A DNA stretch of 64,000 nt from Patescibacteria group bacterium (lineage in GTDB: Bacteria > Patescibacteriota > Patescibacteriia > Buchananbacterales > UBA6539): positions 1,920 through 65,919 of the forward strand of contig JBAZMQ010000002.1 of the NCBI GenBank assembly GCA_041649675.1. The letters are read 5' to 3'. The notes below the pieces were generated by a model. That model was not told the DNA's origin. It saw only the letters and a program-made list of their open reading frames with translations, and did not search any database. Positions 2,927-63,675 of this stretch are shown piece after piece. Within the stretch, counting starts at the first letter, position 1, and each line of letters starts with the position of its first letter. The position numbers and the translations under genes are program-made.

Positions 2927-2929
2927 ATT

Positions 2930-4447: not shown

Positions 4448-4678
4448 TTATTTGGCTTCTTTAGTATCTTTCTTTTTGGAATTTAATAAAAATAACACTT
4501 CCGCAATTATTTTTCTGGTTTTCTTAATTTCGTGAACATTTTTCAATTGATTAGAAGCAACTTTAAACCTCAACTCACGAATTTTTTCTCTTGAGTCGCT
4601 CAAAATTTTCTGCAGTTCTTTTTCAGTTAAATTTTTTAATTCTTTATATTTCATAATTGCTAAATTATTTGACAACAA
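4448..4678 (-). CDS. rpmC: 50S ribosomal protein L29
   Basis: Small helical protein between L16 and S17. Confidence 0.85.
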
Positions 4679-5761: not shown

Positions 5762-5781
5762 AGTATATAATAATTAATTGA

Positions 5782-8086: not shown

Positions 8087-8091
8087 ATTGA

Positions 8092-8793
8092 TTATTTAAC
8101 AAAAGTTTTTTCAATTACGGCTAACGATTCAACCGGTAACAATAAATAATTAGCATGCAAGACATCTAAAACATTTAGACTGTCGGCTAAAATCATATCC
8201 AATCGATCAATGTTTCTGGCAGCCCGCCAAAGCTTAAGATCTTGTTTTGGTAAAACCACTAAAACTTTCTTGGCCGGTTTTTTCTTTTCTTTTGGCTTTT
8301 TATCAGAACTTTCATCTTTTTTCTTAGCAATTTTCTTTTTGTCCCGCAAATTCAAATTCTTCAGGATTTCAAAAAACTTTTTAGTTTTAACTTGTTCCAA
8401 TTCTAATTTATCTACTAAAACAATTTTTTCATTAAGCGCTTTATCCGACAAAGTCATCAAGATTGCTTTACGTTTAGCTTTCTTATTAATCTTAAGCGAA
8501 AAATTACGATCACTAGTTGGACCAAAGGTAATGCCACCACCACGCCAGAGCGGAGACCTAATTGAACCATGACGAGCACGACCAGTTCCCTTTTGTCGCC
8601 AAGGTTTTCTACCGCCACCAGCCACTTCACTTTTGTCTTTAGTATCGGCTAAAACTTGCCGCTGATTGGCTTGCAAAGTAACGACTGCCTGGGTGATTAA
8701 CTCTGGTTTAATTTTTACTTCAAAAACTGCTGGATTCAATTCCACTTCTTTAATCTTTTCACCAGTTAAGTTGTAAACAGTAGTTTTTATCAT
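8092..8793 (-). CDS. rplD: 50S ribosomal protein L4 (Lys-rich C-terminal extension)
   Basis: L4-like sequence; operon order. Confidence 0.9.
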   Translation of the reverse strand: MIKTTVYNLTGEKIKEVELNPAVFEVKIKPELITQAVVTLQANQRQVLADTKDKSEVAGGGRKPWRQKGTGRARHGSIRSPLWRGGGITFGPTSDRNFSLKINKKAKRKAILMTLSDKALNEKIVLVDKLELEQVKTKKFFEILKNLNLRDKKKIAKKKDESSDKKPKEKKKPAKKVLVVLPKQDLKLWRAARNIDRLDMILADSLNVLDVLHANYLLLPVESLAVIEKTFVK

Positions 8794-33148: not shown

Positions 33149-33224
33149 TGGTCGGGGTAGTGGGATTTGAACCCACGGCCTCACGCACCCCATGCGTGCA
33201 CGCTACCAACTGCGCTATACCCCG
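33149..33224 (-). tRNA. tRNA-Pro (anticodon GGG)
   Basis: Manual fold of 76 nt: 7-bp acceptor stem with C1:G72 and A73 (the bacterial tRNA-Pro identity); D arm GCGC/GCGT; anticodon loop AT-GGG-GT; T arm GTGGG-TTCAAAT-CCCAC; CCA encoded. Confidence 0.8.
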
Positions 33225-33640: not shown

Positions 33641-33672
33641 TGATTAAAAACGACTGAATCAAAGATCAAGAT

Positions 33673-34794
33673 CTAGGCCTGTTGGCCTCTGTGAGCATTG
33701 TGCTCAGTAATCATGGTAATCAGTTCCGGCACTCGCTCAAGCGGGATTGCCTGATCCTTGTCGCACAAAGCCTCTGCCGGCTTAACGTGAGTTTCAACCA
33801 TGACCACGTCGGGCGAATGCTTTAAGCCGTTCTGTAAATCCTCAAAGACCAGGTCTACCCGACCGGCCATATGAGAAGGGTCAAGACAAACCGGTGCCCA
33901 AGAACGACTGTGCAGCTCGTTGATCCAGGAAAAATTCGGATAGAACCGATGCGGATCATGAGTGTCGACCTTTCTTAAACCGCGAACACAAAAGATGATC
34001 TTTTGGTTGCCCGAAGGAGCACTCTTCTCGGGATCCAATCTCCCATCCTCGTCCCAAAACATCGGACCGTACAAAACCCACCCGGCCAAATCCATGAGTT
34101 CGTCAATTCGCGTCATCGTGAGGCCATGCTTGATCATAACGACAAACTCTTTCTGAAGACCAAGAGCCTCCAGCAAGCAATAGTTCTGGGTTCGGGCTCC
34201 AACCCAAAGGACTATGTCGCCTCTGTAGCTTGTACGATCACGGCACCGGCGGACAATTTCGATATCCGGACTTTCCATCACCTCCATCCAAACTGATCTC
34301 ACGTCATTGGCCGCTGCCGCCCGTAAAAAGTTTTCCAAGCCGGCCTCACCAAAACCCCGAAAACCTTCGGCCTTAGAACGCGGCTTTTTCCAGCCACCCC
34401 GAAGATCTTGGACTCCCAATTTGACCAAACCTTGAACTGTTAAACCAATGTGCTTATCAATGGCACATTGACCGGCAACCAAACGACACGGCTGGCCGGG
34501 ACCAATTAATGACCCACCAACCTCAATGAGATGATGATCACCGCCATTACGCAAGGGACTGACCTGAGACGGCGAAACCCGCAGCACCCGTTCCACGCCA
34601 TCCATCTGGAAAACGTGTTCGGGAATACTGTTGGCCTGCGCCTTACCATCTTTGAGATGGATTAAAACGGCGATAAAATGGACACCAGCCTCAGCTTGAA
34701 CTTGTGGACTAAGGCCGTAGAGAATAGCCTTTTGAACAATGGCTTCGACCCGCGAATCAGTTGCCTGAACGCCGGTAATCATTTGGATAATCAT
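33673..34794 (-). CDS. 3-deoxy-7-phosphoheptulonate (DAHP) synthase, type I-beta with N-terminal regulatory domain
   Basis: RGGWKKPRS...F.G.G, LDPSHMAGR, VMVETH motifs. ~90-aa N-terminal extension before the TIM barrel. RBS GGAGGAAG. Confidence 0.75.
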   Translation of the reverse strand: MIIQMITGVQATDSRVEAIVQKAILYGLSPQVQAEAGVHFIAVLIHLKDGKAQANSIPEHVFQMDGVERVLRVSPSQVSPLRNGGDHHLIEVGGSLIGPGQPCRLVAGQCAIDKHIGLTVQGLVKLGVQDLRGGWKKPRSKAEGFRGFGEAGLENFLRAAAANDVRSVWMEVMESPDIEIVRRCRDRTSYRGDIVLWVGARTQNYCLLEALGLQKEFVVMIKHGLTMTRIDELMDLAGWVLYGPMFWDEDGRLDPEKSAPSGNQKIIFCVRGLRKVDTHDPHRFYPNFSWINELHSRSWAPVCLDPSHMAGRVDLVFEDLQNGLKHSPDVVMVETHVKPAEALCDKDQAIPLERVPELITMITEHNAHRGQQA

Positions 34795-34843
34795 GATACT
34801 CTTCCTCCATTACTTCGTTTCTGCCTTTTGTTTATTCTTCGCA

Positions 34844-36052
34844 CTAGTCCCTGTTCCGAATAATCGGGTAGGAACCAATCACAACAACATTAATCGCAAT
34901 CTTCTTTAGCGCCCAAATCGCTAAGCGTAGCCGCCGACTTTTTTTAATGTGTCCGGCCGCATCGATAAAGAAGACATAGTCACCGAGTTGCTTCTTGGCT
35001 GTCCAAGAAACAATCATTCCCAGGTTCACACCTAAAAGCCAAAAGGGCAATAGCGACCACATCAAACCGCCCGGCTTGTTTGGCGCTTTGAAAAAAATCG
35101 TGGTTTGATCATTACCATTGGGTTTAGGTGCATCTGCACCCAGAATTAAAAACCGTGTGACATTTGTACTGGCTGGCAAATCACCGATATCGGCTAGAAT
35201 GACTTCAAGTCTATCATACTCAGTTGCGGCTTCAGGTGAAGCAATGGCCGCAAGATCATTTTGATCAGATTCGGCAACCATTTTAGCCGCTGCCGCCGTA
35301 CTGGGTGCGTCAATAATTTCCCACTCAGGATGTTGAGCCAAAATTCTTTCGCACTGCCCGCGAGGCTGATGGTGAGTAACTACCGACTTGATATCTTCTA
35401 AGCACGCGCCGGCTTTGCCAAGCAACATGTGCTTAATTGGAATTTCAACTTGGCAAACAATTCGCAATCGTAAATTAGTCGCGGCATTGACAACAAAGAA
35501 ATTCACAGTCGGATAGACAAAAGCGCCGGCGGCATTTTCAAACGGTGCCACAATCATCTCGATTAAACCTTGACCAAAGGCTTCAAGCAATTCCGGAATC
35601 GATGTGTATAGCACCAATTCATAATCATTCGGCTCCAGACCTTTGTAAGCGAAATAGCGCCTAGCGGCACTAACTGAAAAGGTACCAGCCGGCCCTAAGC
35701 AACCAAGCTTTATTTTTTGCGTTTGCATTACTGTTTCTCCCGTAAATTCCTGTTTTGACTTATCGTCAACCGAAGGTAATGGTACTTCCGGCCTTAACTT
35801 ACAAACAATTCCTAAGACCACCTGGCCCCAAAAATCAAAGGGACACTCCCCTTTGCCGCGTGGATGAACATAGACGCAACCGACGTCAACGCAACCGCCC
35901 TTCAACCGAGACTTACTTCGTAACTGACAGTGAGTCAGGTAAGGTACCAAGCCAATCCATACAAATTCAATCACTTGTACGGTTTGACGAGGACAGACTA
36001 TCTCTTGCGTCGAGCCAGGCCTTATTTCGTCAATACTGACTACTCTTGCCAT
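34844..36052 (-). CDS. pheA: Prephenate dehydratase (PDT + ACT). The PDT domain begins at MQTQKIKLGCLGP (start 35728); the ORF is open for a further 108 Cys-rich codons upstream to an ATG at 36052
   Basis: PDT motifs LGPAGTFS and ACT-like C-terminus. A tiny uORF (MRFITT) with a strong SD ends 13 nt before 36052; GGGAG lies 9 nt before 35728. Start is uncertain. Confidence 0.75.
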   Translation of the reverse strand: MARVVSIDEIRPGSTQEIVCPRQTVQVIEFVWIGLVPYLTHCQLRSKSRLKGGCVDVGCVYVHPRGKGECPFDFWGQVVLGIVCKLRPEVPLPSVDDKSKQEFTGETVMQTQKIKLGCLGPAGTFSVSAARRYFAYKGLEPNDYELVLYTSIPELLEAFGQGLIEMIVAPFENAAGAFVYPTVNFFVVNAATNLRLRIVCQVEIPIKHMLLGKAGACLEDIKSVVTHHQPRGQCERILAQHPEWEIIDAPSTAAAAKMVAESDQNDLAAIASPEAATEYDRLEVILADIGDLPASTNVTRFLILGADAPKPNGNDQTTIFFKAPNKPGGLMWSLLPFWLLGVNLGMIVSWTAKKQLGDYVFFIDAAGHIKKSRRLRLAIWALKKIAINVVVIGSYPIIRNRD

Positions 36053-36154
36053 AACCGTATCCTTTTTTAAGTTGTAATGAACCTCATGAGCAATCCTCCT
36101 TACTACCCAATTTCTAACCCCAAAATAATCAGGGACAAATATTGAGTAATAAAC

Positions 36155-36185
36155 AAAAAAACTGACCCTTAATTGGTAATCAGTT
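36155..36185 (-). terminator. Attenuator terminator of the aromatic leader (ACUGAUU-loop-GGUCAGU + U7)
   Basis: Stem plus U7 ~50 nt after the leader-peptide stop. Its 5' arm can instead pair with GUCAGUUGG at the leader's end (antiterminator). Confidence 0.6.
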
Positions 36186-36240
36186 GATTGCTTGTTTTGA
36201 GTTTTTTGCCCTATTTTTTTGCTATACCCAAACCAACTGA

Positions 36241-36300
36241 CTACCGGTCAGTAAAATAGAAACCGAAATAATACCAGTTGTTGGTTTGCAATCTTGTCAT
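36241..36300 (-). CDS. Leader peptide MTRLQTNNWYYFGFYFTDR (aromatic-rich) for pheA-DAHPS
   Basis: 7 of 8 consecutive codons are Trp/Tyr/Phe. The stop codon sits in the loop of hairpin ACUGAC-CGGUA-GUCAGU (36236-36252). Confidence 0.65.
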   Translation of the reverse strand: MTRLQTNNWYYFGFYFTDR

Positions 36301-36311
36301 AGGATATTTGT

Positions 36312-36340
36312 AGATTAACGTAATTCTTCAAATTTGTCAA
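36312..36340 (-). promoter_or_regulatory. Promoter TTGACA-N17-TAATCT driving the aromatic leader (near-leaderless)
   Basis: Same architecture as the other four modules: -35 TTGACA, -10 TAAnnT-like, ~10 nt to the ATG. Confidence 0.5.
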
Positions 36341-36349
36341 ATATCCAAT

Positions 36350-36383
36350 AAAAAGAAGCCCTAAATCATTTGACTTAGGGCTT
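36350..36383 (-). terminator. Intrinsic terminator after proB
   Basis: AAGCCCTAA-N-TTAGGGCTT + T run; abuts the -35 of the next module. Confidence 0.65.
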
Positions 36384-37127
36384 TTGGGCTAGAAAAGTGG
36401 TTCCGGGAGTACGGCCAGGGCCAAGGATCTTAGTGATGACATTTGGCTTACTGCCTTTGGCCAGATGAACGGTAATACCGGCCCTGGTAGCTTTTTCAGC
36501 GGCGATAAGCTTACTACCCATACCATTACGGTTAGAAACTTTCACACCTTCCACGCCGGCTAAGGCCTTGATGGCATCGTCAATTACCGGAACAATCGAA
36601 ATTACTTTGAGCTTACGGTTCTGAAGTCCATCAACGTCGGAAAGTAAAATCAACTTACTGGCGCCAATACCAATGGCAACAATCGCGGCCAAAGCATCGT
36701 TATCTCCCTGATGCTCCATCGCCTTAATTTCCAAAGCGGAAACCGAATCATTCTCGTTAAGAACCGGAACAATTCCGATTTCCAGTTCCCGCCGAATTAA
36801 AGCAATTGTCTTTGGGTGTTTGAAGTCTTGATGTGTCCCCTGTATCTGACTGGCAATCAACCCCCGTTTGCGAAAAGCTTCAATCCAATAAGCCATCAGC
36901 TTTGGTTGGCCAACAGATGCTGCCACCTGTTTATCAATGATTTTTTCTCCGCCCGCGACACCATTACCACAGGCAACCGCGCCTGAAGTCACAATAACGG
37001 GCCAATAGCCTTGCTGACGCAAACTGGCAATCTGTCTGGCTAACGCCCTCAAAATTCTCCTTTTGATCTTGCCGTTTTCGTCCACCAACACATTGGTTCC
37101 AATTTTAATGACCACTATCTTTTCCAA
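36375..37127 (-). CDS. proB: Glutamate 5-kinase (no PUA domain); probable TTG start at 37127 after GGAGGA
   Basis: IVPVLNENDSVSALEIKAMEHQGDNDALAAIVAIGIGASKLILLSDVDGL matches the ProB core. The ORF-track extension to 37208 runs through the attenuator terminator. Confidence 0.75.
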   Translation of the reverse strand: MEKIVVIKIGTNVLVDENGKIKRRILRALARQIASLRQQGYWPVIVTSGAVACGNGVAGGEKIIDKQVAASVGQPKLMAYWIEAFRKRGLIASQIQGTHQDFKHPKTIALIRRELEIGIVPVLNENDSVSALEIKAMEHQGDNDALAAIVAIGIGASKLILLSDVDGLQNRKLKVISIVPVIDDAIKALAGVEGVKVSNRNGMGSKLIAAEKATRAGITVHLAKGSKPNVITKILGPGRTPGTTFLAQKP

Positions 37128-37156
37128 AAGAGCATCCTCCTTTCGTTTGGTTAAAC

Positions 37157-37181
37157 AAAAAACAGCCCGGAAGTTGGGGCT
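37157..37181 (-). terminator. Attenuator terminator of the proline leader (AGCCC-loop-GGGCU + U6)
   Basis: The loop and 5' arm CCCCAACUUCC are perfectly complementary (11 nt) to GGAAGUUGGGG at 37212-37221, just after the leader stop (antiterminator). Confidence 0.6.
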
Positions 37182-37220
37182 ATTCTCTATCTTTTTATTA
37201 CAGCGCAAAAACCCAACTTC

Positions 37221-37271
37221 CTAAGGCAAAGTTGGTGGGACTGGTAAAGTTGAGTTAAAGCGTTTGTTCAT
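37221..37271 (-). CDS. Leader peptide MNKRFNSTLPVPPTLP (Pro-rich) for proB
   Basis: 4 Pro in the last 8 codons; the ATG is 6 nt after the -10. Confidence 0.6.
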   Translation of the reverse strand: MNKRFNSTLPVPPTLP

Positions 37272-37277
37272 ATCAAT

Positions 37278-37305
37278 ATCTTAGCAGATTTAAAAAATTT
37301 GTCAA
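37278..37305 (-). promoter_or_regulatory. Promoter TTGACA-N16-TAAGAT for the proline leader
   Basis: Sequence match; the -35 directly abuts the upstream terminator. Confidence 0.5.
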
Positions 37306-37335
37306 AAAGAAAAGGATTAAGCAAAGCTTAATCCT
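37306..37335 (-). terminator. Intrinsic terminator after leuA-like gene 1
   Basis: AGGATTAAGC-AAA-GCTTAATCCT + U-rich run. Confidence 0.65.
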
Positions 37336-37360
37336 TAAAATACAAAGAACACGAACAATC

Positions 37361-38929
37361 TTACTCGGCTTTAACCGTTGGGATCGGCGCATGCGCCAAA
37401 TGGTTTAGAGCGGCTACCATGGCCTGAACGCAAGCCTCAATAATGTCAGTATTAGCACCGCGACCAAAAGCAACCTGGCCATCATGAGCGATTTTGATCA
37501 TCGCCAACCCCAAAGCTTCCACGCCACCAGTGCTTTTACCAACATCAAAGTCTTCCAAAACAACTTCACCGGGCCAGAGATCACCGCGGACTAATGCTGT
37601 CTTAACCGCCTGCCAAACCGATGAGACTGGTCCGTTACCGCTACCACTGGCTTCATATTCAAAACCGTTTCTGCCTAGTAGCACTGTTACCGACCGTACA
37701 TTATCCAACCGATGATACTGGACTCGCTTGACTGTCAACAAATGCTGACTCTGAGCCGATGTGGCCACACAAGCTTCCTGCATCAACATATGTAAGTCAG
37801 CATTGTGAACTAAGGCCTTGGTTTCGGCCAACTGCAGAAAAAGCCGGTAAACTTCGTTTAACAAGTCGCCTTCAGCCTGATAACCAAGTTGATCCAAACG
37901 AGTCTGCAAGCCTTTGCGACCGGAACTGGTGCTAAGCGGAAAAGACTCACCAACCCAACCAACGCTTTGAGGCGGCATGATCTCGTAGGTATTGGCATGC
38001 TTGATCATACCATCCTGGTGAATACCCGAAGAATGGGCAAAAACGTTGCCACCAACCACCGGGGTTGTGGGTGGAATCGGCCGTTTAATAATGGCTGCCA
38101 ACAAGCGTGCCGCTGGCCCAAACTGGGTGCTGTCAATTGGACAATCCAACCGATAATACTCAGCCTGGAGCTGCAACGCCTTTACGAATGGCTCAAAACC
38201 AGTATTACCCGCTCGTTCACCAATACCGCAAATCGTGGTCTCGGCTTGCCGGGCACCATTCATGACCGCTGCCAACGAATTGGCAACAGCTAACGCTAAA
38301 TCATTATGGCAGTGACAAGATAGGATAATCCTCTTTTCTACCACTTCACGTAGCGCTGCGATTTGGGCAAACATCGAACCATACTGTTGAGGTTGAGCAA
38401 ACCCAACGGTATCAGGCAAGTTGATTATACCGGCGCCAGCCTCAATTACTGCTAAAACGATTTCCTTCAAGAAACCAATATCACTGCGGCTGGCGTCTTC
38501 AGCGGAAAACTGCACCTGACCAACATGGGCAAAGCTGCAGGCAAACTTGACCGCCTCAACTGCCCTAGTGATTACCTCGGCCGGCTTCATCTTCAGCTTG
38601 AATTCCATATGCTGCGGACTGGTAGCAATGAAGGTGTGGATGCGACCCGGCTGAATAGCATTCTGCAGCGCTTCAGCCGCACGCGCAATATCTTTTTCAT
38701 TGGCCCGGGCTAATGCTGAAATGCGAGCGCCCTGAACCTGGCCAGCCGCCAGACGCACAGCAGCAAAATCAACGTCCGAAGCAATCGGAAACCCGGCTTC
38801 AATAGTGCAAACTCCCATCTTGGCGAGTTGTATTGCCAAAGTGAGCCGGTCTTCGGCTGACTGGCTGCAACCCGGTGATTGGGCTCCATCTCTACAAGTC
38901 GTATCATGAATCTCAATAACCTTAACCAT
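37361..38929 (-). CDS. leuA: 2-isopropylmalate synthase (LeuA family, with C-terminal regulatory/dimerisation domain)
   Basis: N-terminus TTCRDGAQSPG; HxH metal site SCHCHNDLALAVANSLAAV; LeuA_dimer-like C-terminus; RBS AAGGAG. Confidence 0.8.
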   Translation of the reverse strand: MVKVIEIHDTTCRDGAQSPGCSQSAEDRLTLAIQLAKMGVCTIEAGFPIASDVDFAAVRLAAGQVQGARISALARANEKDIARAAEALQNAIQPGRIHTFIATSPQHMEFKLKMKPAEVITRAVEAVKFACSFAHVGQVQFSAEDASRSDIGFLKEIVLAVIEAGAGIINLPDTVGFAQPQQYGSMFAQIAALREVVEKRIILSCHCHNDLALAVANSLAAVMNGARQAETTICGIGERAGNTGFEPFVKALQLQAEYYRLDCPIDSTQFGPAARLLAAIIKRPIPPTTPVVGGNVFAHSSGIHQDGMIKHANTYEIMPPQSVGWVGESFPLSTSSGRKGLQTRLDQLGYQAEGDLLNEVYRLFLQLAETKALVHNADLHMLMQEACVATSAQSQHLLTVKRVQYHRLDNVRSVTVLLGRNGFEYEASGSGNGPVSSVWQAVKTALVRGDLWPGEVVLEDFDVGKSTGGVEALGLAMIKIAHDGQVAFGRGANTDIIEACVQAMVAALNHLAHAPIPTVKAE

Positions 38930-39043
38930 GGCGTTTACTCCTTAATGTTTCTGCCTTTTACCTCTGCCAACCGTGGCAAAAGTTTTCTTAACTAACCTAA
39001 ATTGGAAAGGACATGTCTATCCCACAAACAGCGCGAGATAAAC

Positions 39044-39068
39044 AAAAAAGCCTTCCTGAGTGGAAGAC
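39044..39068 (-). terminator. Attenuator terminator of the leucine leader (GUCUUCC-ACUCA-GGAAGGC + U6)
   Basis: Its 5' arm CUUCCAC is complementary to GGGUGGAAGG (39113-39122) inside the leader-ORF tail (antiterminator). Confidence 0.6.
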
Positions 39069-39097
39069 TGACTGGTATTTATCTAATGCTATTTTAG

Positions 39098-39184
39098 CTA
39101 GACACTAGTAAACCTTCCACCCTGGGGCTGGCTTAACAACAACAAACCTAGCAAGAGATTAGATTGGGGAAGGTTATATTTCAT
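39098..39184 (-). CDS. Leader peptide MKYNLPQSNLLLGLLLLSQPQGGRFTSV (Leu-rich) for leuA
   Basis: 7 Leu in 8 consecutive codons. The start of the ORF (ACCUUCCCC) can pair with GGGUGGAAGGU (1:2 pairing). Confidence 0.65.
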   Translation of the reverse strand: MKYNLPQSNLLLGLLLLSQPQGGRFTSV

Positions 39185-39194
39185 AGATAATAAT

Positions 39195-39223
39195 AACTTA
39201 CACTACCGGTTTAATTTTGTCAA
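39195..39223 (-). promoter_or_regulatory. Promoter TTGACA-N17-TAAGTT for the leucine leader
   Basis: Sequence match; 10 nt to the ATG. Confidence 0.5.
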
Positions 39224-39240
39224 TAATTATAGCTATTTAG

Positions 39241-39276
39241 AAAAAACCTATAGCTTCGCTTGGGCAAAGCTATAGG
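39241..39276 (-). terminator. Intrinsic terminator after the 90-aa gene
   Basis: CCTATAGCTT-N10-AAGCTATAGG + U6. Confidence 0.65.
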
Positions 39277-39305
39277 TTAGCAATTAAGGTACAATTCCTC
39301 TTTGG

Positions 39306-39578
39306 TTAGGCTAGGCCGTAGGACTCTAACACCATCTGCCGGTTAATCATCGATGGACCAACAACCGAACCGGTAAAAATCAAAACCTCTGGTCCTTGCA
39401 ATAAGGCCACAACGCGGCAAGAACCGCCAACGCCTCGGTTAAACTCAAGACAATGCTGGTCAGTAGAGCCGTTAACCCTTAACCCACCGCCTGGCCTAAC
39501 TTCAATTCTGACTCCTTCATAGATAGTAGAACTGCCCGGCCCTACCGGCACTCGTTTGGTTGGTAATGGCTTTTCCAT
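39306..39578 (-). CDS. Hypothetical 90-aa Gly-rich protein under the Val-rich leader
   Basis: Strong RBS AAGGAG; no recognisable domain; high G+C like its neighbours. Confidence 0.5.
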   Translation of the reverse strand: MEKPLPTKRVPVGPGSSTIYEGVRIEVRPGGGLRVNGSTDQHCLEFNRGVGGSCRVVALLQGPEVLIFTGSVVGPSMINRQMVLESYGLA

Positions 39579-39626
39579 AGTAATACTCCTTAGTTTGTTC
39601 TGCCTTGTTAATTTGCGGAAATAAAC

Positions 39627-39650
39627 AAAAAACTAGTCCTTTTAGACTAG
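39627..39650 (-). terminator. Attenuator terminator of the valine leader (CUAGUC-UAAAAG-GACUAG + U6)
   Basis: Regions 1-4 are CUAGUC/GACUAG/CUAGUC/GACUAG. The 1:2 hairpin (39694-39710) lies within the leader-ORF tail. Confidence 0.6.
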
Positions 39651-39677
39651 CTGGCTGTTTTGCTTTCTTGCTACTGC

Positions 39678-39755
39678 TTAAATACCAAACCACCTAGTCT
39701 TATGACTAGTTACGACTACGACAACGCTCAAGATTTGGCAAGCAATAGATTTCAT
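39678..39755 (-). CDS. Leader peptide MKSIACQILSVVVVVTSHKTRWFGI (Val-rich)
   Basis: Five consecutive Val codons (GTT GTC GTA GTC GTA). Confidence 0.6.
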   Translation of the reverse strand: MKSIACQILSVVVVVTSHKTRWFGI

Positions 39756-39761
39756 AAACTC

Positions 39762-39791
39762 AGCTTAGCAAATTCCAAAAAGACTTGTCAA
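39762..39791 (-). promoter_or_regulatory. Promoter TTGACA-N18-TAAGCT for the valine leader
   Basis: Sequence match; 6 nt to the ATG. Confidence 0.45.
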
Positions 39792-39837
39792 ATATTAGCA
39801 ATTCGTATGTGCGTATTCGTAACGCTATTTGCATACT

Positions 39838-39873
39838 AAAAAAAGACCGACTACTGAGAAACTCAATAGTCGG
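39838..39873 (-). terminator. Intrinsic terminator after LeuA/CimA-like gene 2
   Basis: GACCGACTA-N-TAGTCGGT + U6. Confidence 0.65.
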
Positions 39874-39890
39874 TTTGAAATCAAAGGACA

Positions 39891-41438
39891 TTACTGGTGG
39901 TGGTTTTGGTTGCAGATGTTAATGGCTGCTTCAGCCGCATAAATTGCCGCCATCACCTGGTCAGTATCCAAGCCAACGGTTTGGAATTCGCCCTCACCAT
40001 TTGGCCCTTTCCAGCGGATATTGGCTTGCACAATAGCCGCATAAGTTCCGCCAGGCGGAATCTTGAGATCGTAGTCAATTAGCTTGGGTACTGAAATCTT
40101 ATGCTGCTTGGCCCACTTGACCAAGGCGTTCATAAAAGCATCAAATCCGCCATCACCATGAGCGGAAATCTCATATTGCCGCTTATAATAAACGATAGTA
40201 GCTGCAGCGGTTGCCCGGCGACCAATCGTTGACTGGGTCGTGGCATGCTCGACTCGAAAAACAATCACGTCAGGCCGATTCAAGACTTCAGCAATAATGT
40301 AAGGCAGGTCAGCAATGGTTACCGGCTTACCTTCATCGCCCAGTTTGGTGACTCTAGTAGAGACAGCATTGATTTCTTCGTCATTCAGAGTCAGGCCAAA
40401 ACGGGCAGCGTTACTGCGAATACTAGCCTTACCGGAAAGTTTGCCAAGAGAATGCTCAACTCTAATGCCTAAACGGCCAGCCGTCAGACATGGATGAACA
40501 TAGAGCCCGGCCTTAAGATCACCATCAACATGGACACCGGCGGTGGTAACGAAAACATTGCCAGCGATTGGTTTGCTCGGCGACACTCGTCGACCAGACA
40601 TCATGGCAACCACTTGGCTAGCCGGGCGAAGGTGAGCTTCTTGCACTCCGGTGCAAAAACCGCGCAGATGATCGGTAATACCCACTACCACCTCATCCAA
40701 AGCCGCGTTGCCGGCTCTTTCGCCTAAGCCATTAACGGTTAAGTGAACACCAGAGATAGCCCCAGTTTTAACCGCCGCCAACGAATTGGCAACAGCCAAA
40801 CCGTAGTCATTGTGACCGTGAAAGTCATAGCGAAGCTTAGGCTGCCAGCGACTAGTTTGAGTGATAAAGTCAGCAACCTGCCAAGGACTTAAAACGCCCA
40901 TGGTGTCACAAAGCATTGCTCGGCTAATCGGCAACTTAGCCAATCCGGCCAAAAGTTTTTTAACATACTGAGGCGAATTAAGCATGCCTTGAGACCAATC
41001 CTCCAGATACACATTAACCATCAAGCCGTGAGAAATAGCATACTTAACCGTTATTTCAATGTCTGCCAGATGCTGCTCTAAACTCTTGCGTAACTGGCCT
41101 TCGCAGTGCTTAAGCGAACCTTTGCACAGCAAGTTCATCACTTTGCCGCCACCACTCCTGATCCAGTCAACCGACTTTTTGCCGTCAACAAAACCAAGCA
41201 CTTCAATTCGATCGGCAAAGCCATGTTTGGTGGCCCACTCCATAACCGTAGCCAGCATCTGCTTTTCACCTTCAGAAACCAAAGCCGATGTCACTTCAAT
41301 ACGATCAACCATTAGTTGGGTTAAGGCATTGATGACATAAGCCAATTTCTGCTTGGGCCGAAAACTGACACCCGGCGTTTGTTCTCCATCACGCAAAGTG
41401 ACGTCAGCAACTTCAATTTGTTTCTCTTTCCTTGACAT
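39891..41438 (-). CDS. LeuA-family synthase paralog, likely (R)-citramalate synthase CimA (isoleucine branch) given its Ile-rich leader
   Basis: N-terminus DVTLRDGEQTPG; HGHNDYGLAVANSLAAV; LeuA-type C-terminal domain. The CimA-versus-IPMS assignment is inferred from the leader. Confidence 0.7.
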   Translation of the reverse strand: MSRKEKQIEVADVTLRDGEQTPGVSFRPKQKLAYVINALTQLMVDRIEVTSALVSEGEKQMLATVMEWATKHGFADRIEVLGFVDGKKSVDWIRSGGGKVMNLLCKGSLKHCEGQLRKSLEQHLADIEITVKYAISHGLMVNVYLEDWSQGMLNSPQYVKKLLAGLAKLPISRAMLCDTMGVLSPWQVADFITQTSRWQPKLRYDFHGHNDYGLAVANSLAAVKTGAISGVHLTVNGLGERAGNAALDEVVVGITDHLRGFCTGVQEAHLRPASQVVAMMSGRRVSPSKPIAGNVFVTTAGVHVDGDLKAGLYVHPCLTAGRLGIRVEHSLGKLSGKASIRSNAARFGLTLNDEEINAVSTRVTKLGDEGKPVTIADLPYIIAEVLNRPDVIVFRVEHATTQSTIGRRATAAATIVYYKRQYEISAHGDGGFDAFMNALVKWAKQHKISVPKLIDYDLKIPPGGTYAAIVQANIRWKGPNGEGEFQTVGLDTDQVMAAIYAAEAAINICNQNHHQ

Positions 41439-41545
41439 AGACTGCTATCCTCCATGACGCCCTAGCGTCTTGTTTCTGCCTTTTTCCAAATCAATGAATT
41501 GCTAAAGAGCGTCTTACTAAAACTACTGGTTCAAGCAAGACAATC

Positions 41546-41574
41546 AAAAAAGCCTTCCGAGTGGAAGGCTTTTT
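41546..41574 (-). terminator. Attenuator terminator of the isoleucine leader (GCCUUCC-ACUC-GGAAGGC + U6)
   Basis: Perfect 7-bp stem. The antiterminator partner GGGUGGAAGC is at 41608-41617, and the 5' end of the leader ORF CUUUCCACC gives 1:2 pairing. Confidence 0.65.
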
Positions 41575-41592
41575 GTATCGTCTAACTTGATG

Positions 41593-41673
41593 TTATCTCA
41601 TAAGAAAGCTTCCACCCTGAGGCTGGCTAATAATGATAATGCTGATAATAATGTTTTTTCTGGTGGAAAGCAT
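41593..41673 (-). CDS. Leader peptide MLSTRKNIIISIIIISQPQGGSFLMR (Ile-rich)
   Basis: 7 Ile in 8 consecutive codons. The tail SQPQGG is shared with the Leu leader. Confidence 0.65.
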   Translation of the reverse strand: MLSTRKNIIISIIIISQPQGGSFLMR

Positions 41674-41687
41674 AATTGTATTTTTCT

Positions 41688-41716
41688 ATCTTAAAGGATT
41701 ACCCAAAAAAAGTCAA
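41688..41716 (-). promoter_or_regulatory. Promoter TTGACT-N17-TAAGAT for the isoleucine leader
   Basis: Sequence match; ~14 nt to the ATG. Confidence 0.5.
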
Positions 41717-41942
41717 GCCAAACAAAAGATTTATCTATCTTTAACAAAAATTAACCTCCAAGCTATATTTGCGCTGCCCAGGCAAAAACATAGCCTAAAA
41801 TTGAGAGGGTTAACATAATAGCAAAAATGGATAAACCCAAAAACGTACCGGCTTCAGTCAAACTTTTTAACCGCGGCTTTGGCTTACAGCGATAATTGTG
41901 GCTTAAATATGGCATTAATAAAAAAAATAAAAACCCAATTAA

Positions 41943-42119
41943 TTAGCTGATATGATCATCAACGAATTTAATCAGGTCTTTTTCTAAAACACGATAAGTT
42001 TTGTGGCCAATTTTGGCTGCTCGTAATTTTTTCGAACTAACCCAACGGTAAACCGTCTTTTGGCTTACCTTCATAATCTTGGCGACTTCCTCAAGCGTTA
42101 AAATTCCGTAATTAGACAC
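41943..42119 (-). CDS. Small excisionase-family helix-turn-helix DNA-binding protein (58 aa, GTG start)
   Basis: LTLEEVAKIMKVSQKTVYRWVSSKKLRAAKIGHKTYRVLEKDLIKFVDD matches the excisionase/MerR-type HTH pattern. Not in the ORF track because it is under 60 aa. Confidence 0.55.
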   Translation of the reverse strand: MSNYGILTLEEVAKIMKVSQKTVYRWVSSKKLRAAKIGHKTYRVLEKDLIKFVDDHIS

Positions 42120-52845: not shown

Positions 52846-54171
52846 CTATAAATCTAAGTACCTTTTCAATTCCCTTGGCGTGACTTCAGTTTTCTGTTCA
52901 TCAATTTCTATGTTTTTAGCATCAATGAATCTATCTAAAGTATGTTTAGTAATTGAATTGATGATTATTTCATCTTTATTTAATTCATCAATCGCTTCTT
53001 GAAGCGAGCCTGGCAGGCTAGATATTTTTAACTCTTGCTTTCTGGTGCTGTCTAAATGATAGATATCTTCTTCAACTGCCTTAGACAACGGGATGTTATT
53101 TTCAATTCCGTCTAAACCGGCCTCTAAAATGGCGGCAAAAGCCAAATAAGGATTACACGACGGATCAGGCGATCGAAGTTCAACTCTGGTGGATTGCTCA
53201 CGGCCGGGCGTAAACCGCGGGATTCGGATAAGGGCCGAACGATTCATTTGGGCCCAGCAAATATTAACCGGGGCTTCATAACCCGGAATCAATCTTTTGA
53301 ACGAATTGGTAGTTGGGTTGGTTAAGGCCGTAAAACTTCGGCTATGTTTGAGTAATCCAGCAATAAACTGATAGGCAATCTTTGACAACTTGTAACCATT
53401 ATTATCTTCGTAAAACAAATTATTACCTTTTTGGTCAAATAAGCTTAAGTGAACATGCATACCTGATCCATTAATGCCGGCAAATGGTTTTGGCATAAAG
53501 GTCGCATTAACACCATAGCTTTGCGCAATCGCCTTGATAGTAGTTTTCAAAGTAATAATATTGTCAGCAGTATTTAAGGCATCAGCATAACGAAAATCTA
53601 TTTCATGCTGACCAACGGCTACCTCATGATGTCCAGCTTCAATTTTTATGTTTAACTCAGATGAAGCCTTTATTACATCTTCCCTAATTTTTGAAGCAAC
53701 ATCAAAAGGCGAGAAATCAAAATAGCCACCGTAATCATGAGGTACCGGAGCTAAATTACTGTCTTTCTGCAAAAGAAAAAATTCTAGTTCAGCGCCAACA
53801 TTTAAAACATACCCTTTTTCTTCTGCCTTTTTCATGGCTTGGCGTAAAATGTAACGCGGGTCGCCGCTAAAGGGTTTTAAATCCGGCCCATAGACATCAC
53901 AGATAATTCTCGCCGCCTTATTATCTTTTGTACTCCAAGGTAAAGTGCAATAAGTTTTTGCATCCGGCATTAGCAGCTGATCACTCTCGGCGATTCTAGC
54001 AAATCCTTCAATTGACGAACCATCAAACCAGATCCCTTTTTCCAAAGCCCCGGGCAACTGCTCGGTCGGAATAACGACATCTTTGGGTACGCCCAAAATA
54101 TCGGTAAACTGCAAATGAATGTACTTAACATTGTCTTTTTCTACTTTTTCTAAAAGTGTTTCTTTGCTCAT
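52846..54171 (-). CDS. glnA: Glutamine synthetase type I; start at MSKETLLEKV (54171); ORF track over-extends to 54276 through the promoter
   Basis: GS beta-grasp and catalytic domains; FDGSSIEGF and other GS-I motifs. Confidence 0.9.
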   Translation of the reverse strand: MSKETLLEKVEKDNVKYIHLQFTDILGVPKDVVIPTEQLPGALEKGIWFDGSSIEGFARIAESDQLLMPDAKTYCTLPWSTKDNKAARIICDVYGPDLKPFSGDPRYILRQAMKKAEEKGYVLNVGAELEFFLLQKDSNLAPVPHDYGGYFDFSPFDVASKIREDVIKASSELNIKIEAGHHEVAVGQHEIDFRYADALNTADNIITLKTTIKAIAQSYGVNATFMPKPFAGINGSGMHVHLSLFDQKGNNLFYEDNNGYKLSKIAYQFIAGLLKHSRSFTALTNPTTNSFKRLIPGYEAPVNICWAQMNRSALIRIPRFTPGREQSTRVELRSPDPSCNPYLAFAAILEAGLDGIENNIPLSKAVEEDIYHLDSTRKQELKISSLPGSLQEAIDELNKDEIIINSITKHTLDRFIDAKNIEIDEQKTEVTPRELKRYLDL

Positions 54172-54216
54172 AGTTAATTGTTTCCGCCATAGGCGGAAAT
54201 TGTTAATTGTTAAACT

Positions 54217-54274
54217 AAAAAAAGGCGTCAAATTAGAGGACGTCTTCGTCAAACTTCTGACACGCCGTTGTGTC
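54217..54274 (-). promoter_or_regulatory. glnA 5' leader: hexaloop hairpin GACAC-AACGGC-GUGUC overlapping a candidate terminator GGCGU...ACGCC + U7
   Basis: The loop has A1/G4 as in ANTAR-bound hairpins. The hairpin's 3' arm doubles as the 5' arm of the terminator. A GAF-ANTAR gene is immediately upstream. Confidence 0.45.
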
Positions 54275-54280
54275 ATCTAT

Positions 54281-54307
54281 ATATTAGCATAACTGGAAAA
54301 TTTTGCA
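54281..54307 (-). promoter_or_regulatory. glnA promoter TTGCAA-N16-(TGc)TAATAT
   Basis: Extended -10 TGnTAATAT and -35 TTGCAA on the minus strand. Confidence 0.5.
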
Positions 54308-54335
54308 AGGTTGAGATGTGGATATCTTAACCAAA

Positions 54336-54432
54336 ACCCCTCACCCACTCAGTAAAACTTAAGTCCCTCTCCCCGCTTGAGGCGGGGAGAGGGTGGTCGC
54401 CTCGAGCTTGTCGAGAGGCGACCGGGTGAGGG
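54336..54432. repeat. Second copy of the G+C-rich nested-palindrome element. On the minus strand it ends GGGTGAGGGGTTTTGGTT and so also acts as the terminator after the ANTAR gene
   Basis: Outer IR CCCCTCACCC/GGGTGAGGGG. Inner hairpins CCCTCTCCCCGC-TTGAGG-GCGGGGAGAGGG and GGTCGCCTC...GAGGCGACC. Confidence 0.75.
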
Positions 54433-54435
54433 GCC

Positions 54436-55140
54436 CTACTTGATCACTTCTTGGGCTAAAATAATCGCCTCAGCCACTTCTTTTAGCGACCGACGCTTAT
54501 CCATACTTTTTTTAACTAAAAGCCGATGAGCCTCCTCTTCAGTCAAACCGCCGTTTTTCATCAAAATCGCCTTGGCCTTGTTAATCAATTTTTGGGTCTC
54601 CAAAGCTTCTTTTAAAACATTAGTTTCGGAAATCAATCTTGAGACTTCCAAAATTCCGCCGATTTGTTTAGCAATGGTTTCTAAAAAGCTGATTTCTTTT
54701 TTCTGATATTTTTTGGATTTTTTGTGCTGAACGTTAATGACGCCAATCACGCTGTTTTTAAAAATAATGGGTACGGATAAAAAACCTTCAAATTTATCTT
54801 CGGGTAAACTGGAAAACAATTTGAACCGCTTATCTTCATAAGCTTTGCTAAAAATTGCTACTGATTTTTTGGTTTCCGCTACCCAGCCGGTAATACCTTC
54901 ACCAACTTTCATTTTAATCTTAGCTAAATTGGAATGATGCGGATTTTGTGAGGCTTTTAAAATTACTTCATCGCCAGAAATTAAATAAATAAAACAAGAA
55001 TCAGCTTTGGTGATTTTACCAATAATTTTTGCAATATTATTCAAAATTTCTTTCAAATCAAAACCGTTGCCGATGGTATCAATAATCTCCTGCAAAATCG
55101 CTAAATTGTTTTTTACGTCTGAATTTTGATCCTTAGACAT
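54436..55140 (-). CDS. GAF-ANTAR RNA-binding antitermination regulator
   Basis: N-terminal GAF-like domain. C-terminus EALETQKLINKAKAILMKNGGLTEEEAHRLLVKKSMDKRRSLKEVAEAII is an ANTAR motif. Confidence 0.75.
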   Translation of the reverse strand: MSKDQNSDVKNNLAILQEIIDTIGNGFDLKEILNNIAKIIGKITKADSCFIYLISGDEVILKASQNPHHSNLAKIKMKVGEGITGWVAETKKSVAIFSKAYEDKRFKLFSSLPEDKFEGFLSVPIIFKNSVIGVINVQHKKSKKYQKKEISFLETIAKQIGGILEVSRLISETNVLKEALETQKLINKAKAILMKNGGLTEEEAHRLLVKKSMDKRRSLKEVAEAIILAQEVIK

Positions 55141-63366: not shown

Positions 63367-63600
63367 AAACAAAAATCTCCCTTTTCGAGGGAGCGGTTAG
63401 ATCATCCATTTTAAAAACGGACGGCCACCGACTCTTAATCTCGAAGAGTTTAGTGAATTAATTAAGCTTTGATTTTAGCGACCTGACTTAGTTGAGTGCA
63501 GCATCACCCCTCGATAACTCGGGGTAATTTTTCGTTGCACTCAAAATCACAGTTGCGGACCAGTGGAGGGTTTACACCTCACTTCGTAAAACTAAAGCTT
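63367..63600 (-). promoter_or_regulatory. Cobalamin riboswitch (candidate) with terminator/RBS-sequestering hairpin CUCCCU-CGAAA-AGGGAG + U5 just before the start codon
   Basis: Core GAAGUGAGGUGUAAACCCUCCACUGGUCCGCAACUGUGA (revcomp of 63547-63585) follows the B12-element consensus ...GGUGnAAAnCC...GCnGnCCCGCnACUGUnA. Confidence 0.55.
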
Positions 63601-63675
63601 TTTGTCAACGCTATCGTATAGGCTAATTAGAATATTAGAACTTTTTAATTACCCATATCGCAATAGCACTTCATC

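What the first reader, a model, noticed from the sequence alone, without database searches (positions are those of the whole stretch)
39306..39791. Unknown 90-aa protein is the only non-enzyme cargo and sits behind the valine-run leader
The four other modules control recognisable, end-product-inhibited enzymes. The VVVVV leader (39678-39755) instead controls a Gly-rich 90-aa protein with a strong RBS and no domain I can recognise. By analogy, an AHAS regulatory-subunit-like or other Val/BCAA-related function is predicted. The attenuator is the cleanest of the five: regions 1-4 are literally CUAGUC / GACUAG / CUAGUC / GACUAG.
Basis: inference. Interest (0 to 1): 0.7.

Follow-up and report, generated by a model that had tools for sequence, protein, structure and literature searches.

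The report
Valine-sensing leader controls unknown small protein
A short valine-rich leader and its RNA switch, conserved in at least 13 uncultured Patescibacteria lineages, control a real 90-residue protein of a new family whose predicted structure matches nothing solved, so its role in valine shortage is open and testable.

Summary
On the minus strand there is a complete transcription unit: promoter, 25-codon leader ORF with five consecutive Val codons, four 6-nt boxes (CUAGUC/GACUAG/CUAGUC/GACUAG plus a U-tract), Shine-Dalgarno site, 90-aa ORF and its own terminator.

The box pattern occurs only here in the window; none is expected by chance. The same Val leader and attenuator occur in 13 lineages. 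In 11 of them it precedes a homologue of the 90-aa protein, always in the slot between the Ile and Leu modules. In 2 it precedes an unrelated 214-aa protein. Compensatory changes support the antiterminator and the 1:2 hairpin.

The protein is real: 22 homologues of 86-120 aa, dN/dS about 0.2, and an AlphaFold model at pLDDT 92.9. It matches no Pfam, NCBIfam, PADLOC or PHROG family, and no PDB or BFVD fold. It is not ACT-like, so the AHAS small-subunit idea is not supported. No polar residue is invariant, which argues for a binding protein rather than an enzyme.

The best reading is a classical ribosome-mediated Val attenuator driving a new non-enzymatic valine-starvation protein. Its target is unknown.

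The parts
39846..39874 (-). Intrinsic terminator of the upstream CimA-like gene; marks the upstream boundary of the Val unit
   Evidence: 13-bp stem followed by a T-run
39786..39791 (-). -35 hexamer TTGACA of the Val-unit promoter
   Evidence: Read from the sequence. The geometry TTGACA-N16-18-TAnnnT-N6-ATG was found at the Val leaders of 11 of the 13 loci; L081 and L093 were not picked up by the pattern and L094 was not in that scan
39762..39767 (-). -10 hexamer TAAGCT, exactly 6 nt before the leader ATG; implies a leaderless leader mRNA
   Evidence: the gap between the -10 hexamer and the ATG is 6 nt in every Val and Pro leader detected
39678..39755 (-). Leader peptide ORF MKSIACQILSVVVVVTSHKTRWFGI (25 codons)
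   Evidence: Homologous MKSIA...VVV..LV leaders occur in 12 other loci
39711..39725 (-). Run of five Val codons (GUU GUC GUA GUC GUA); the sensing codons
   Evidence: Sequence. The run ends 1 nt before box 1, so a ribosome stalled here would cover box 1
39704..39709 (-). Box 1, CUAGUC
   Evidence: 100% paired with box 2 in 13 sequences, including a UA to CG double change in L093
39694..39699 (-). Box 2, GACUAG; pairs with box 1 or with box 3
39644..39700 (-). Span of the antiterminator helix (2:3), AGACUAG-G-UGG... with ...CCA-G-CUAGUCU; -19.3 kcal/mol
   Evidence: 13 pairs are 92.9% paired across 13 lineages, against 27-54% for slid controls, and 2 pairs carry compensatory changes
39645..39650 (-). 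Box 3, CUAGUC
39627..39638 (-). Box 4, GACUAG, plus U6 tract. With box 3 it forms the attenuator terminator (9-bp stem, -10.3 kcal/mol)
   Evidence: The boxes are invariant in 13 lineages
39586..39591 (-). Shine-Dalgarno AAGGAG, 7 nt before the ATG of the 90-aa ORF
   Evidence: Sequence
39306..39578 (-). 90-aa protein (NCBI WC508_01100, 'hypothetical protein'); founding member of a new family of about 90 aa
   Evidence: 22 homologues; dN/dS about 0.2; AF2 pLDDT 92.9
39245..39278 (-). Strong intrinsic terminator ending the Val unit (15-bp stem); the Leu-module promoter follows

Best explanation
The region is a self-contained, valine-responsive transcription unit in a Patescibacteria genome.

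Supported by sequence, folding and comparison across lineages:
- A sigma-70-type promoter sits 6 nt before a 25-codon leader ORF, so the leader mRNA is probably leaderless.
- When Val-tRNA is plentiful, the ribosome runs to the leader stop codon and covers box 2. Boxes 3 and 4 then form the terminator and transcription stops before the gene.
- When Val-tRNA is scarce, the ribosome stalls on the five Val codons and covers box 1. Box 2 is left free to pair with box 3 in a longer helix (-19.3 against -10.3 kcal/mol) that forms before box 4 is transcribed. RNA polymerase then reads through into the 90-aa gene.
- The 90-aa ORF is a real protein of a new, lineage-restricted family with a confident all-beta plus one helix model.

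Inferred:
- The protein is a non-catalytic binding or regulatory protein made only under valine shortage.
- It fills the 'valine slot' of a conserved five-module island. In the other slots sits the first committed, feedback-controlled enzyme of a pathway. Valine has no committed enzyme of its own.
- My preferred guess for its action, held at low confidence, is that it binds another protein at the shared branched-chain branch point and diverts pyruvate and 2-ketoisovalerate towards valine. Candidate targets are a CimA/LeuA-type synthase or acetolactate synthase.
For: Attenuator:
- All elements are present, and none of the box pattern is expected by chance.
- Folding with the ribosome footprint masked gives the antiterminator when the ribosome is stalled at Val codons in 9 of 10 homologues. 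In the window itself the two states are iso-energetic: -19.7 kcal/mol with the terminator and -19.3 with the antiterminator. With the ribosome at the stop codon, the terminator forms in 10 of 10.
- The unit is conserved in 13 lineages.
- Compensatory changes occur at two antiterminator pairs and in the 1:2 hairpin.

Gene:
- 22 homologues of 86-120 aa.
- dN/dS of 0.19-0.35.
- It has its own SD site and terminator.
- AF2 with the alignment gives pLDDT 92.9 and pTM 0.83.

Link to valine:
- In 11 of 13 loci the Val leader is followed by this family.
- An HMM of the family finds it only behind Val leaders among the 94 loci fetched by then and the window.

Non-enzyme:
- Only G70 and G74 are invariant. 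G15, G31, F46 and M77 are nearly so. No polar residue is invariant.

Slot logic:
- The module order Ile, Val, Leu, Pro, aromatic is fixed across the loci.
Against: - No experiment exists. Valine responsiveness is inferred from codon content and RNA structure.
- In several homologues the leader also carries Ile and Leu codons (for example IILVVVIVLV), so specificity may be broader than valine.
- The molecular function is not shown by anything. There is no family, fold or motif match.
- The protein persists in loci where LeuA and/or the CimA-like enzyme are replaced by unknown proteins (L081, L089, L091). This weakens the idea that it acts on those neighbours.
- It is not depleted in Val (13% here, family mean 9.3% against 7.7% background). 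That is not what is often seen for proteins made under shortage of an amino acid.
- AlphaFold-database fold libraries were unavailable, so a structural relative may exist outside the PDB.
Confidence: 0.55

Rival explanations
1. The 90-aa protein is an analogue of the small regulatory subunit of acetolactate synthase (IlvN/IlvM/IlvH). It would activate or de-sensitise the catalytic subunit when valine is low.
For: Its size is similar to what I recall for IlvN (96 aa) and IlvM (87 aa). It sits behind a Val-rich leader, as ilvBN does behind ivbL in E. coli (established knowledge). It lies between two branched-chain genes.
Confidence: 0.05
2. The protein is a starvation-triggered effector aimed at the host cell or a partner organism. 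When the symbiont runs short of valine, the protein raises valine supply from outside, for example by interfering with host feedback control or by promoting uptake. It would not act on the bacterium's own metabolism.
For: The organism is a Patescibacterium, a group generally held to depend on hosts for amino acids (background knowledge). The protein evolves faster than its neighbours: 39% identity where the CimA-like enzyme keeps 62%. Its surface is variable and only glycines are fixed. The Val slot can be taken by a completely different protein (214 aa in L085 and L094), and other slots by other unknown proteins. A lone CimA-like gene with an Ile leader stands among unrelated genes in a Parcubacterium.
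Against: There is no signal peptide or recognisable secretion signal in the sequence. No secretion genes lie in the island. The rest of the genome was not inspected, so complete pathways may exist.
Confidence: 0.15
3. The protein is a valine-binding or 2-ketoisovalerate-binding small protein: a buffer, sensor or carrier. It may oligomerise from propeller-blade-like units.
For: Residues 24-57 resemble one blade of DUF346-type beta-propeller repeats: hhalign 78% probability, E 1.8e-5, with controls at 0.1-0.2%. DUF346 marks PLL-type small-ligand (fucose) lectins (PMC10481521). The Gly-rich loops are conserved.
Confidence: 0.1
4. The ORF is not a functional gene and the hairpins are ordinary terminators. 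The valine run would be a chance feature.
For: The window protein has only itself as a hit in the word-indexed protein search, and it has no annotated family.
Against: There are 22 homologues under purifying selection. Leader, boxes and gene are conserved together in 11 lineages. The box pattern is not expected by chance. Compensatory changes are present. The structure model is confident.
Confidence: 0.02

Closest known systems
E. coli ivbL (ilvBN) and ilvL (ilvGMEDA) leader-peptide attenuators, and the trpL/hisL/leuL/pheL class generally
   Same: A short leader ORF carries a run of codons for the sensed amino acid. Mutually exclusive 1:2, 2:3 and 3:4 hairpins are present, and an intrinsic terminator with a U-tract lies before the structural gene. 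The antiterminator is the most stable helix.
   Different: There is no sequence or Rfam relationship: nothing reaches E <= 1 at the Val leader. The four boxes are one palindrome-derived hexamer and its complement. The leader ORF appears leaderless, with the -10 hexamer 6 nt before the ATG. The phylum is Patescibacteria. The cargo is a single unknown small protein rather than acetolactate synthase or an operon.
Leaderless polycysteine short ORFs acting as Cys-responsive attenuators in mycobacteria (bioRxiv 10.1101/834739, abstract seen)
   Same: A leaderless short ORF enriched in one amino acid controls downstream genes according to the supply of that amino acid.
   Different: The phylum and the amino acid differ. 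Here a clear intrinsic terminator and antiterminator are present. I did not read the mechanism described in that paper beyond the abstract.
Conserved uORF in ilvBNC mRNA of Corynebacterium (PMC10272879, abstract seen)
   Same: A branched-chain-amino-acid-responsive upstream ORF with RNA structure lies ahead of a gene.
   Different: It controls acetolactate synthase genes, and its sequence and phylum are unrelated.
Acetolactate synthase small subunits IlvN/IlvM/IlvH (ACT domain)
   Same: Similar length; association with valine control.
   Different: The fold and sequence are different, and no adjacent catalytic subunit was seen.
DUF346 (PF03984) beta-propeller blades of PLL-type lectins
   Same: There is local profile similarity over 33 columns covering strands 3-7 of the protein.
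   Different: The similarity covers a single blade-sized segment only, and the probability is 78%. No significant structural match was found, no tandem repeat is present, and the window protein has no Trp.

Membership tests
Ribosome-mediated (leader-peptide) transcription attenuators | Short ORF upstream of the regulated gene, with clustered codons for the sensed amino acid | tested here: met
   A 25-codon ORF with 5 consecutive Val codons. Homologous leaders carry 4-7 Val in 12 other loci.
Ribosome-mediated (leader-peptide) transcription attenuators | Mutually exclusive terminator and antiterminator hairpins, placed so that a ribosome stalled at the regulatory codons frees segment 2 | tested here: met
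   Energies are 1:2 -7.6, 2:3 -19.3 and 3:4 -10.3 kcal/mol. Footprint-masked folds give the antiterminator in 9 of 10 homologues; in the window the two states are iso-energetic. The Val run ends 1 nt before box 1.
Ribosome-mediated (leader-peptide) transcription attenuators | Intrinsic terminator (G+C-containing stem plus U-tract) between the leader and the gene | tested here: met
   A 9-bp stem plus U6 at 39627-39652.
Ribosome-mediated (leader-peptide) transcription attenuators | Evolutionary support for the helices (conservation and covariation) | tested here: met
   The 2:3 helix is 92.9% paired in 13 sequences against 27-54% for slid controls. Two of its pairs carry double changes. The 1:2 helix is 100% paired, with a UA to CG change in L093. 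Covariation is modest because the boxes are invariant.
Ribosome-mediated (leader-peptide) transcription attenuators | Read-through increases when the cognate charged tRNA is limiting | not testable with these tools
   Needs reporter, Term-seq or in vitro coupled transcription-translation assays.
Rfam leader families (Leu, His, Thr, Trp, Phe leaders and others) | Covariance-model match at or above the gathering score | tested here: not met
   No hit with E <= 1 over 39620-39760. Only weak sub-threshold hits appear at the neighbouring Ile leader (Phe_leader, 34.8 against 55 bits) and Pro leader (Thr_leader, 23.4 against 55 bits).
AHAS small subunit / ACT domain (IlvN, IlvM, IlvH) | Beta-alpha-beta-beta-alpha-beta ACT fold | tested here: not met
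AHAS small subunit / ACT domain (IlvN, IlvM, IlvH) | Sequence or profile similarity to IlvN-type proteins | tested here: not met
   hhalign of the family profile against E. coli IlvN gives 0.3% probability. There is no Pfam or NCBIfam ACT/ALS_ss hit.
AHAS small subunit / ACT domain (IlvN, IlvM, IlvH) | Gene adjacent to or co-occurring with the AHAS catalytic subunit | tested here: not met
   No TPP-enzyme family is listed in the gene tables of L001, L077, L079, L092, L093 and L094. Whole genomes were not inspected.
LeuA_dimer (PF08502) allosteric domain of IPMS/citramalate synthase | Profile similarity to the regulatory domain | tested here: not met
   hhalign against regulatory domains of the window CimA-like and LeuA proteins gives 0.2% probability. 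There is no Pfam hit.
DUF346 / PLL-type beta-propeller lectin repeats | Profile similarity to the blade repeat | tested here: inconclusive
   hhalign gives 78% probability and E 1.8e-5 over 33 columns. Pfam DUF346 does not hit the family directly.
DUF346 / PLL-type beta-propeller lectin repeats | Tandem blades forming a closed propeller | tested here: not met

The most novel reading that the evidence does not exclude
The five-module island may be a starvation-triggered toolkit by which a host-dependent Patescibacterium reads its own charged-tRNA levels, one amino acid at a time. For each amino acid it would then deploy either the feedback-controlled first enzyme of that pathway or a small non-enzymatic protein. 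The 90-aa protein would serve for valine, with the 214-, 146- and 167/201-aa proteins in sister lineages. The aim would be to force supply of that amino acid from its host or from a shared metabolic pool. On this reading the 90-aa protein is the first member of a class of amino-acid-specific 'demand' effectors with a new fold.
Probability: 0.12. Interest if true: 0.9.

Novelty: new variant of a known kind. Interest (0 to 1): 0.62.

Why it matters
Leader-peptide attenuation is textbook biology, but I found no description of it for Patescibacteria (CPR) in the literature I could search. These organisms are thought to make few or no amino acids.

Here each of five amino-acid signals drives its own single-gene module. 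The valine module never carries an enzyme, transporter or tRNA synthetase. It carries a conserved small protein with no known relatives. That gives a clean, specific handle, 'made only when valine runs out', on a protein of unknown function.

It also bears on a wider question: how ultra-small, host-dependent bacteria sense and respond to amino-acid shortage. The attenuator is compact and built from one hexamer and its complement. That makes it easy to test, and possibly to reuse as a valine sensor.

Tried and rejected
**Family and fold assignments**
- AHAS small subunit / ACT fold: rejected on both fold and profile.
- Relationship to the LeuA/CimA allosteric domain, suggested by a G-x-G-P-helix look-alike motif: rejected (hhalign 0.2%).
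- Relationship to the Cys-rich N-terminal extension of PheA: none (BLASTP E 0.36).
- Phage, plasmid, defence-system or viral origin: no hits in phage or plasmid records, PADLOC, PHROGs, IMG/VR or BFVD.
- Relationship between the 90-aa family and the alternative 214-aa Val cargo: none. The 214-aa protein also has no PDB or Pfam relative.

**Misleading search hits**
- Top long hits of the exhaustive HMMER search are repeat-inflated and unrelated to one another (Sushi control 0.2%). They are P0002 (Sushi repeats), P0003 (repeat junk by eye) and P0007 (PATR repeats). Only the DUF346-like P0004 and P0009 kept a moderate signal.
- Four of the nine metagenome pattern hits (L084, L086-L088) are unrelated ACTAGTCTAAT repeats with no leader ORF.

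**Other ideas that did not hold**
- My impression by eye that the 146-aa Ile-leader cargo of L081 is a free LeuA_dimer domain: not supported.
- Valine depletion of the protein as a signature of starvation proteins: not seen.

**Searches that could not be run**
- Back-translated protein search of the viral collection with the family alignment: not possible because conservation is too low.
- AlphaFold-database fold libraries: not available.

Full report
**1. What is in the sequence**

Every gene in the window is on the minus strand. Between a 515-aa CimA-like synthase (39891-41438) and a 522-aa LeuA (37361-38929) lies a complete, separate transcription unit:

| Element | Coordinates | Note |
|---|---|---|
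| Terminator of the upstream gene | 39846-39874 | |
| -35 TTGACA | 39786-39791 | |
| -10 TAAGCT | 39762-39767 | |
| Leader ORF | 39678-39755 | starts 6 nt after the -10; MKSIACQILSVVVVVTSHKTRWFGI |
| Box 1, CUAGUC | 39704-39709 | |
| Box 2, GACUAG | 39694-39699 | |
| Box 3, CUAGUC | 39645-39650 | |
| Box 4, GACUAG + U6 | 39627-39638 | |
| Shine-Dalgarno AAGGAG | 39586-39591 | |
| 90-aa ORF | 39306-39578 | |
| Terminator | 39245-39278 | 15-bp stem |

The pattern CTAGTC-N2-8-GACTAG occurs only at these two places in 64 kb, and never in 100 shuffles. The leader RNA folds better than all 200 shuffles (z = -3.54).

**2. The switch**

In the window the three helices have energies of -7.6 (1:2), -19.3 (2:3, extended beyond the boxes by GGUGG/CCAGC and inner pairs) and -10.3 kcal/mol (3:4).

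The five Val codons end 1 nt before box 1, so a ribosome stalled there hides box 1 and leaves box 2 free. The leader stop codon lies 13 nt after box 2, so a ribosome that reaches it covers box 2.

I folded ten homologous leaders with the ribosome footprint masked.
- Stalled at the Val codons: the 2:3 antiterminator forms in nine.
- In the window itself the two states are iso-energetic, -19.7 with the terminator against -19.3 with the antiterminator. The antiterminator is complete before box 4 is transcribed.
- Ribosome at the stop codon: the terminator forms in all ten.

These steps follow the classical attenuation model. They are shown here only by sequence and folding, not by experiment.

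**3. Conservation of the switch**

The same unit was found through three routes:
- relatives of the CimA-like protein;
- look-ups of homologues;
- one exact-pattern scan of the metagenome collection.

It occurs in 13 lineages: the window, L003 (a Patescibacteria MAG), L077, L079, L081, L083, L085, L089, L090, L091, L092, L093 and L094.

Leaders read MKSIA...VV(V)..VVVLV.

On an alignment of the 13 attenuators:
- The antiterminator is 92.9% paired, against 27-54% when the partner is slid. Two of its pairs show changes on both sides (GC, AU and UA at one position).
- The 1:2 hairpin is 100% paired. In L093 box 1 is CUAGCC and box 2 is GGCUAG, a double change.
- The terminator boxes never vary.

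No Rfam family matches the Val leader, even at E <= 1.

**4. The protein is real and belongs to a new family**

The word-indexed search found only the protein itself, annotated by NCBI as a hypothetical protein of a 'Patescibacteria group bacterium'.

The exhaustive HMMER scan of 1.84 billion representatives found 16 further proteins of 86-120 aa. The loci added more, giving a 22-sequence alignment.

- The closest pairs give dN/dS of 0.19-0.20, with synonymous sites saturated.
- AlphaFold2 without an alignment was poor (pLDDT 64.6).
- With the family alignment it gave pLDDT 92.9 and pTM 0.83: eight beta strands and one C-terminal helix.

Searches that found nothing significant:
- Foldseek against the PDB: best E 0.27.
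- Foldseek against BFVD: best E 0.29.
- Pfam, NCBIfam, PADLOC and PHROGs: none.
- PDB sequences: nothing below E 0.05.
- Phage and plasmid records: none.

The AlphaFold-database libraries could not be searched. 'No known fold relative' therefore holds for solved and viral structures only.

**5. What the family's sequences say**

Only G70 and G74 are invariant. G15, G31, F46 and M77 are nearly so. No polar or charged residue is fixed. That is not the pattern of an enzyme or a metal site. It fits a small scaffold whose surface changes.

The protein is Gly-rich and Cys-enriched, and it is not depleted in Val.

The one sequence lead is a profile match of residues 24-57 to single blades of DUF346-type propeller repeats. 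hhalign gives 78% probability, with two controls at 0.1-0.2%. DUF346 marks PLL-type fucose lectins (PMC10481521). I treat this as a lead only.

**6. Context: a conserved five-module island**

The window island spans roughly 33.65-41.72 kb. Its GC is 0.466 against 0.382 elsewhere. It lies between a small HTH_17 ORF and tRNA-Pro.

It has five units, each with its own promoter, leader, attenuator and terminator:

| Module | Leader motif | Cargo in the window |
|---|---|---|
| Ile | IIISIIIISQPQGG | CimA-like synthase |
| Val | VVVVV | the 90-aa protein |
| Leu | LLLGLLLLSQPQGG | LeuA |
| Pro | TLPVPPTLP | kinase-only ProB |
| Aromatic | NNWYYFGFYFTDR | PheA plus DAHP synthase |

The order is the same in the related loci.

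An HMM of the 90-aa family hits only ORFs that follow a Val leader, in the 94 loci fetched by then and in the window.

The cargo of the slots can change:
- In L085 and L094 the Val leader drives an unrelated 214-aa protein.
- In L089 and L091 the Leu leader drives unknown 167/201-aa proteins.
- In L081 the Ile leader drives an unknown 146-aa protein.

In six loci a 68-109-aa coiled-coil-like 'partner' ORF follows the Val cargo. Four of them carry the 90-aa family (L003, L089, L090, L091), L092 has a weaker match, and in L085 it follows the 214-aa protein. The window lacks it.

The first 108 residues of the window's PheA ORF match a Cys-rich protein that is a separate ORF in L090, and they also match an ORF in L093. 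So the 90-aa protein is not quite the only non-enzyme cargo.

**7. Interpretation**

- *Established by comparison:* a valine-codon attenuator and a new protein family form a conserved pair.
- *Inferred:* the protein is made when Val-tRNA is short and is non-catalytic.

Every other slot holds the first committed, feedback-controlled enzyme of a pathway, and valine has no such private enzyme. I therefore favour a role in raising valine supply by binding another protein. The target is not identified.

A branch-point role (sparing pyruvate and 2-ketoisovalerate) is attractive. It is weakened by the loci where the neighbouring synthases are replaced.

A host-directed role is attractive because the organisms are Patescibacteria and because a lone CimA-like gene with an Ile leader sits among unrelated genes in a Parcubacterium. 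But there is no secretion signal, and I could not inspect whole genomes.

The AHAS small-subunit idea fails the fold, profile and neighbourhood tests (and the gene tables).

**8. Comparison with what is known, and novelty**

The device works like the ivbL, ilvL, trpL and hisL attenuators, but it is not a member of any curated RNA family.

It differs in four ways:
- the single-hexamer design of the boxes;
- the apparently leaderless leader ORF, with a 6-nt gap after the -10 in every Val and Pro leader detected;
- the phylum;
- the cargo.

I found no paper linking leader-peptide attenuation to Patescibacteria.

I rate the finding as a new variant of a known kind. The regulatory logic is familiar. 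The cargo family and the modular island are not.

Noticed in passing
window 33650-41720 (minus strand); also L003, L077, L079, L085, L089-L094: The whole five-module island (Ile, Val, Leu, Pro, aromatic) recurs in the same order in at least 13 lineages. Each module has its own promoter, leader, attenuator and terminator. The island is 5-8 GC points richer than its flanks in 6 of 7 loci tested (window 0.466 against 0.382). It carries only first-committed, feedback-type enzymes.
   Followed up: partly
window 39756-39767, 37270-37281 and equivalents in 12 loci: Every Val and Pro leader ORF detected starts exactly 6 nt after a TAnnnT -10 hexamer and has no Shine-Dalgarno site. This suggests leaderless leader mRNAs. 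Aromatic leaders always have an 11-nt gap, which ends in ATATCCT in nearly all of them.
   Followed up: partly
window 35729-36052 (N-terminal 108 codons of the 402-aa PheA ORF): This Cys-rich segment has no Pfam match. It matches a separate ORF of 114 aa in L090 (phmmer E 5.9e-9), and that L090 ORF also matches one in L093. It is either a fusion or a second non-enzyme cargo in this window.
   Followed up: partly
L085 (reverse strand, 2423-3067) and L094 4710-5354: In two lineages the same Val leader and attenuator drive an unrelated 214-aa protein with no known family, followed by a 69-aa ORF that resembles the 68-aa ORF following the 90-aa family member in L091.
   Followed up: partly
L003 4136-4465; L089 2215-2544; L090 (reverse) 7817-8125; L091 (reverse) 4599-4805; L092 8341-8634: A 68-109-aa, probably coiled-coil 'partner' ORF is co-transcribed after the Val cargo in about half of the loci. 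It is absent in the window. Its only match is a weak one to a PHROG of unknown function (E 8.5e-4).
   Followed up: partly
L089 3147-3650; L091 (reverse) 5359-5964; L081 445-885: Leu leaders drive unknown 167/201-aa proteins instead of LeuA, and an Ile leader drives an unknown 146-aa protein instead of CimA. None has a Pfam match.
   Followed up: partly
L011 2447; L019 3422; L050 9699; L048 9801: Ile-rich leaders also precede cimA-like genes in Uhrbacteria (L011, L019) and a Parcubacterium (L050); these share the QPxGG tail. L048 has only a weaker Ile-containing short ORF, and its cimA-like gene stands among unrelated genes with no leu or ilv neighbours.
   Followed up: partly
window 36375-37127: The ProB here is the amino-acid-kinase domain only (250 aa). 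Pfam finds only the kinase domain and no PUA domain. It sits just below the NCBIfam cutoff (179.8 against 186 bits).
   Followed up: no
window 63422-63613 (minus strand): An AdoCbl riboswitch scores above Rfam's gathering score (56.2 bits). It lies upstream of a 609-aa protein with DUF4430 and prenyltransferase-like domains.
   Followed up: no
window 52846-55140: Glutamine synthetase lies next to a GAF-ANTAR RNA-binding antiterminator protein. This is another sign that the genome relies on RNA-level control.
   Followed up: no
L003 4851-5047; L079 5561-5773; L091 (reverse) 5107-5304; L092 9022-9171: A small membrane-anchored zinc-ribbon ORF (49-70 aa) lies between the Leu attenuator and its downstream cargo (leuA, or the unknown protein in L091) in several relatives. 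No such ORF is present in the window.
   Followed up: no
window 41945-42100 and 33149-33224: The island is bracketed by a 58-aa HTH_17 (excisionase-like) ORF and tRNA-Pro(GGG). No integrase was seen within 10 kb, and mobility was not tested.
   Followed up: no
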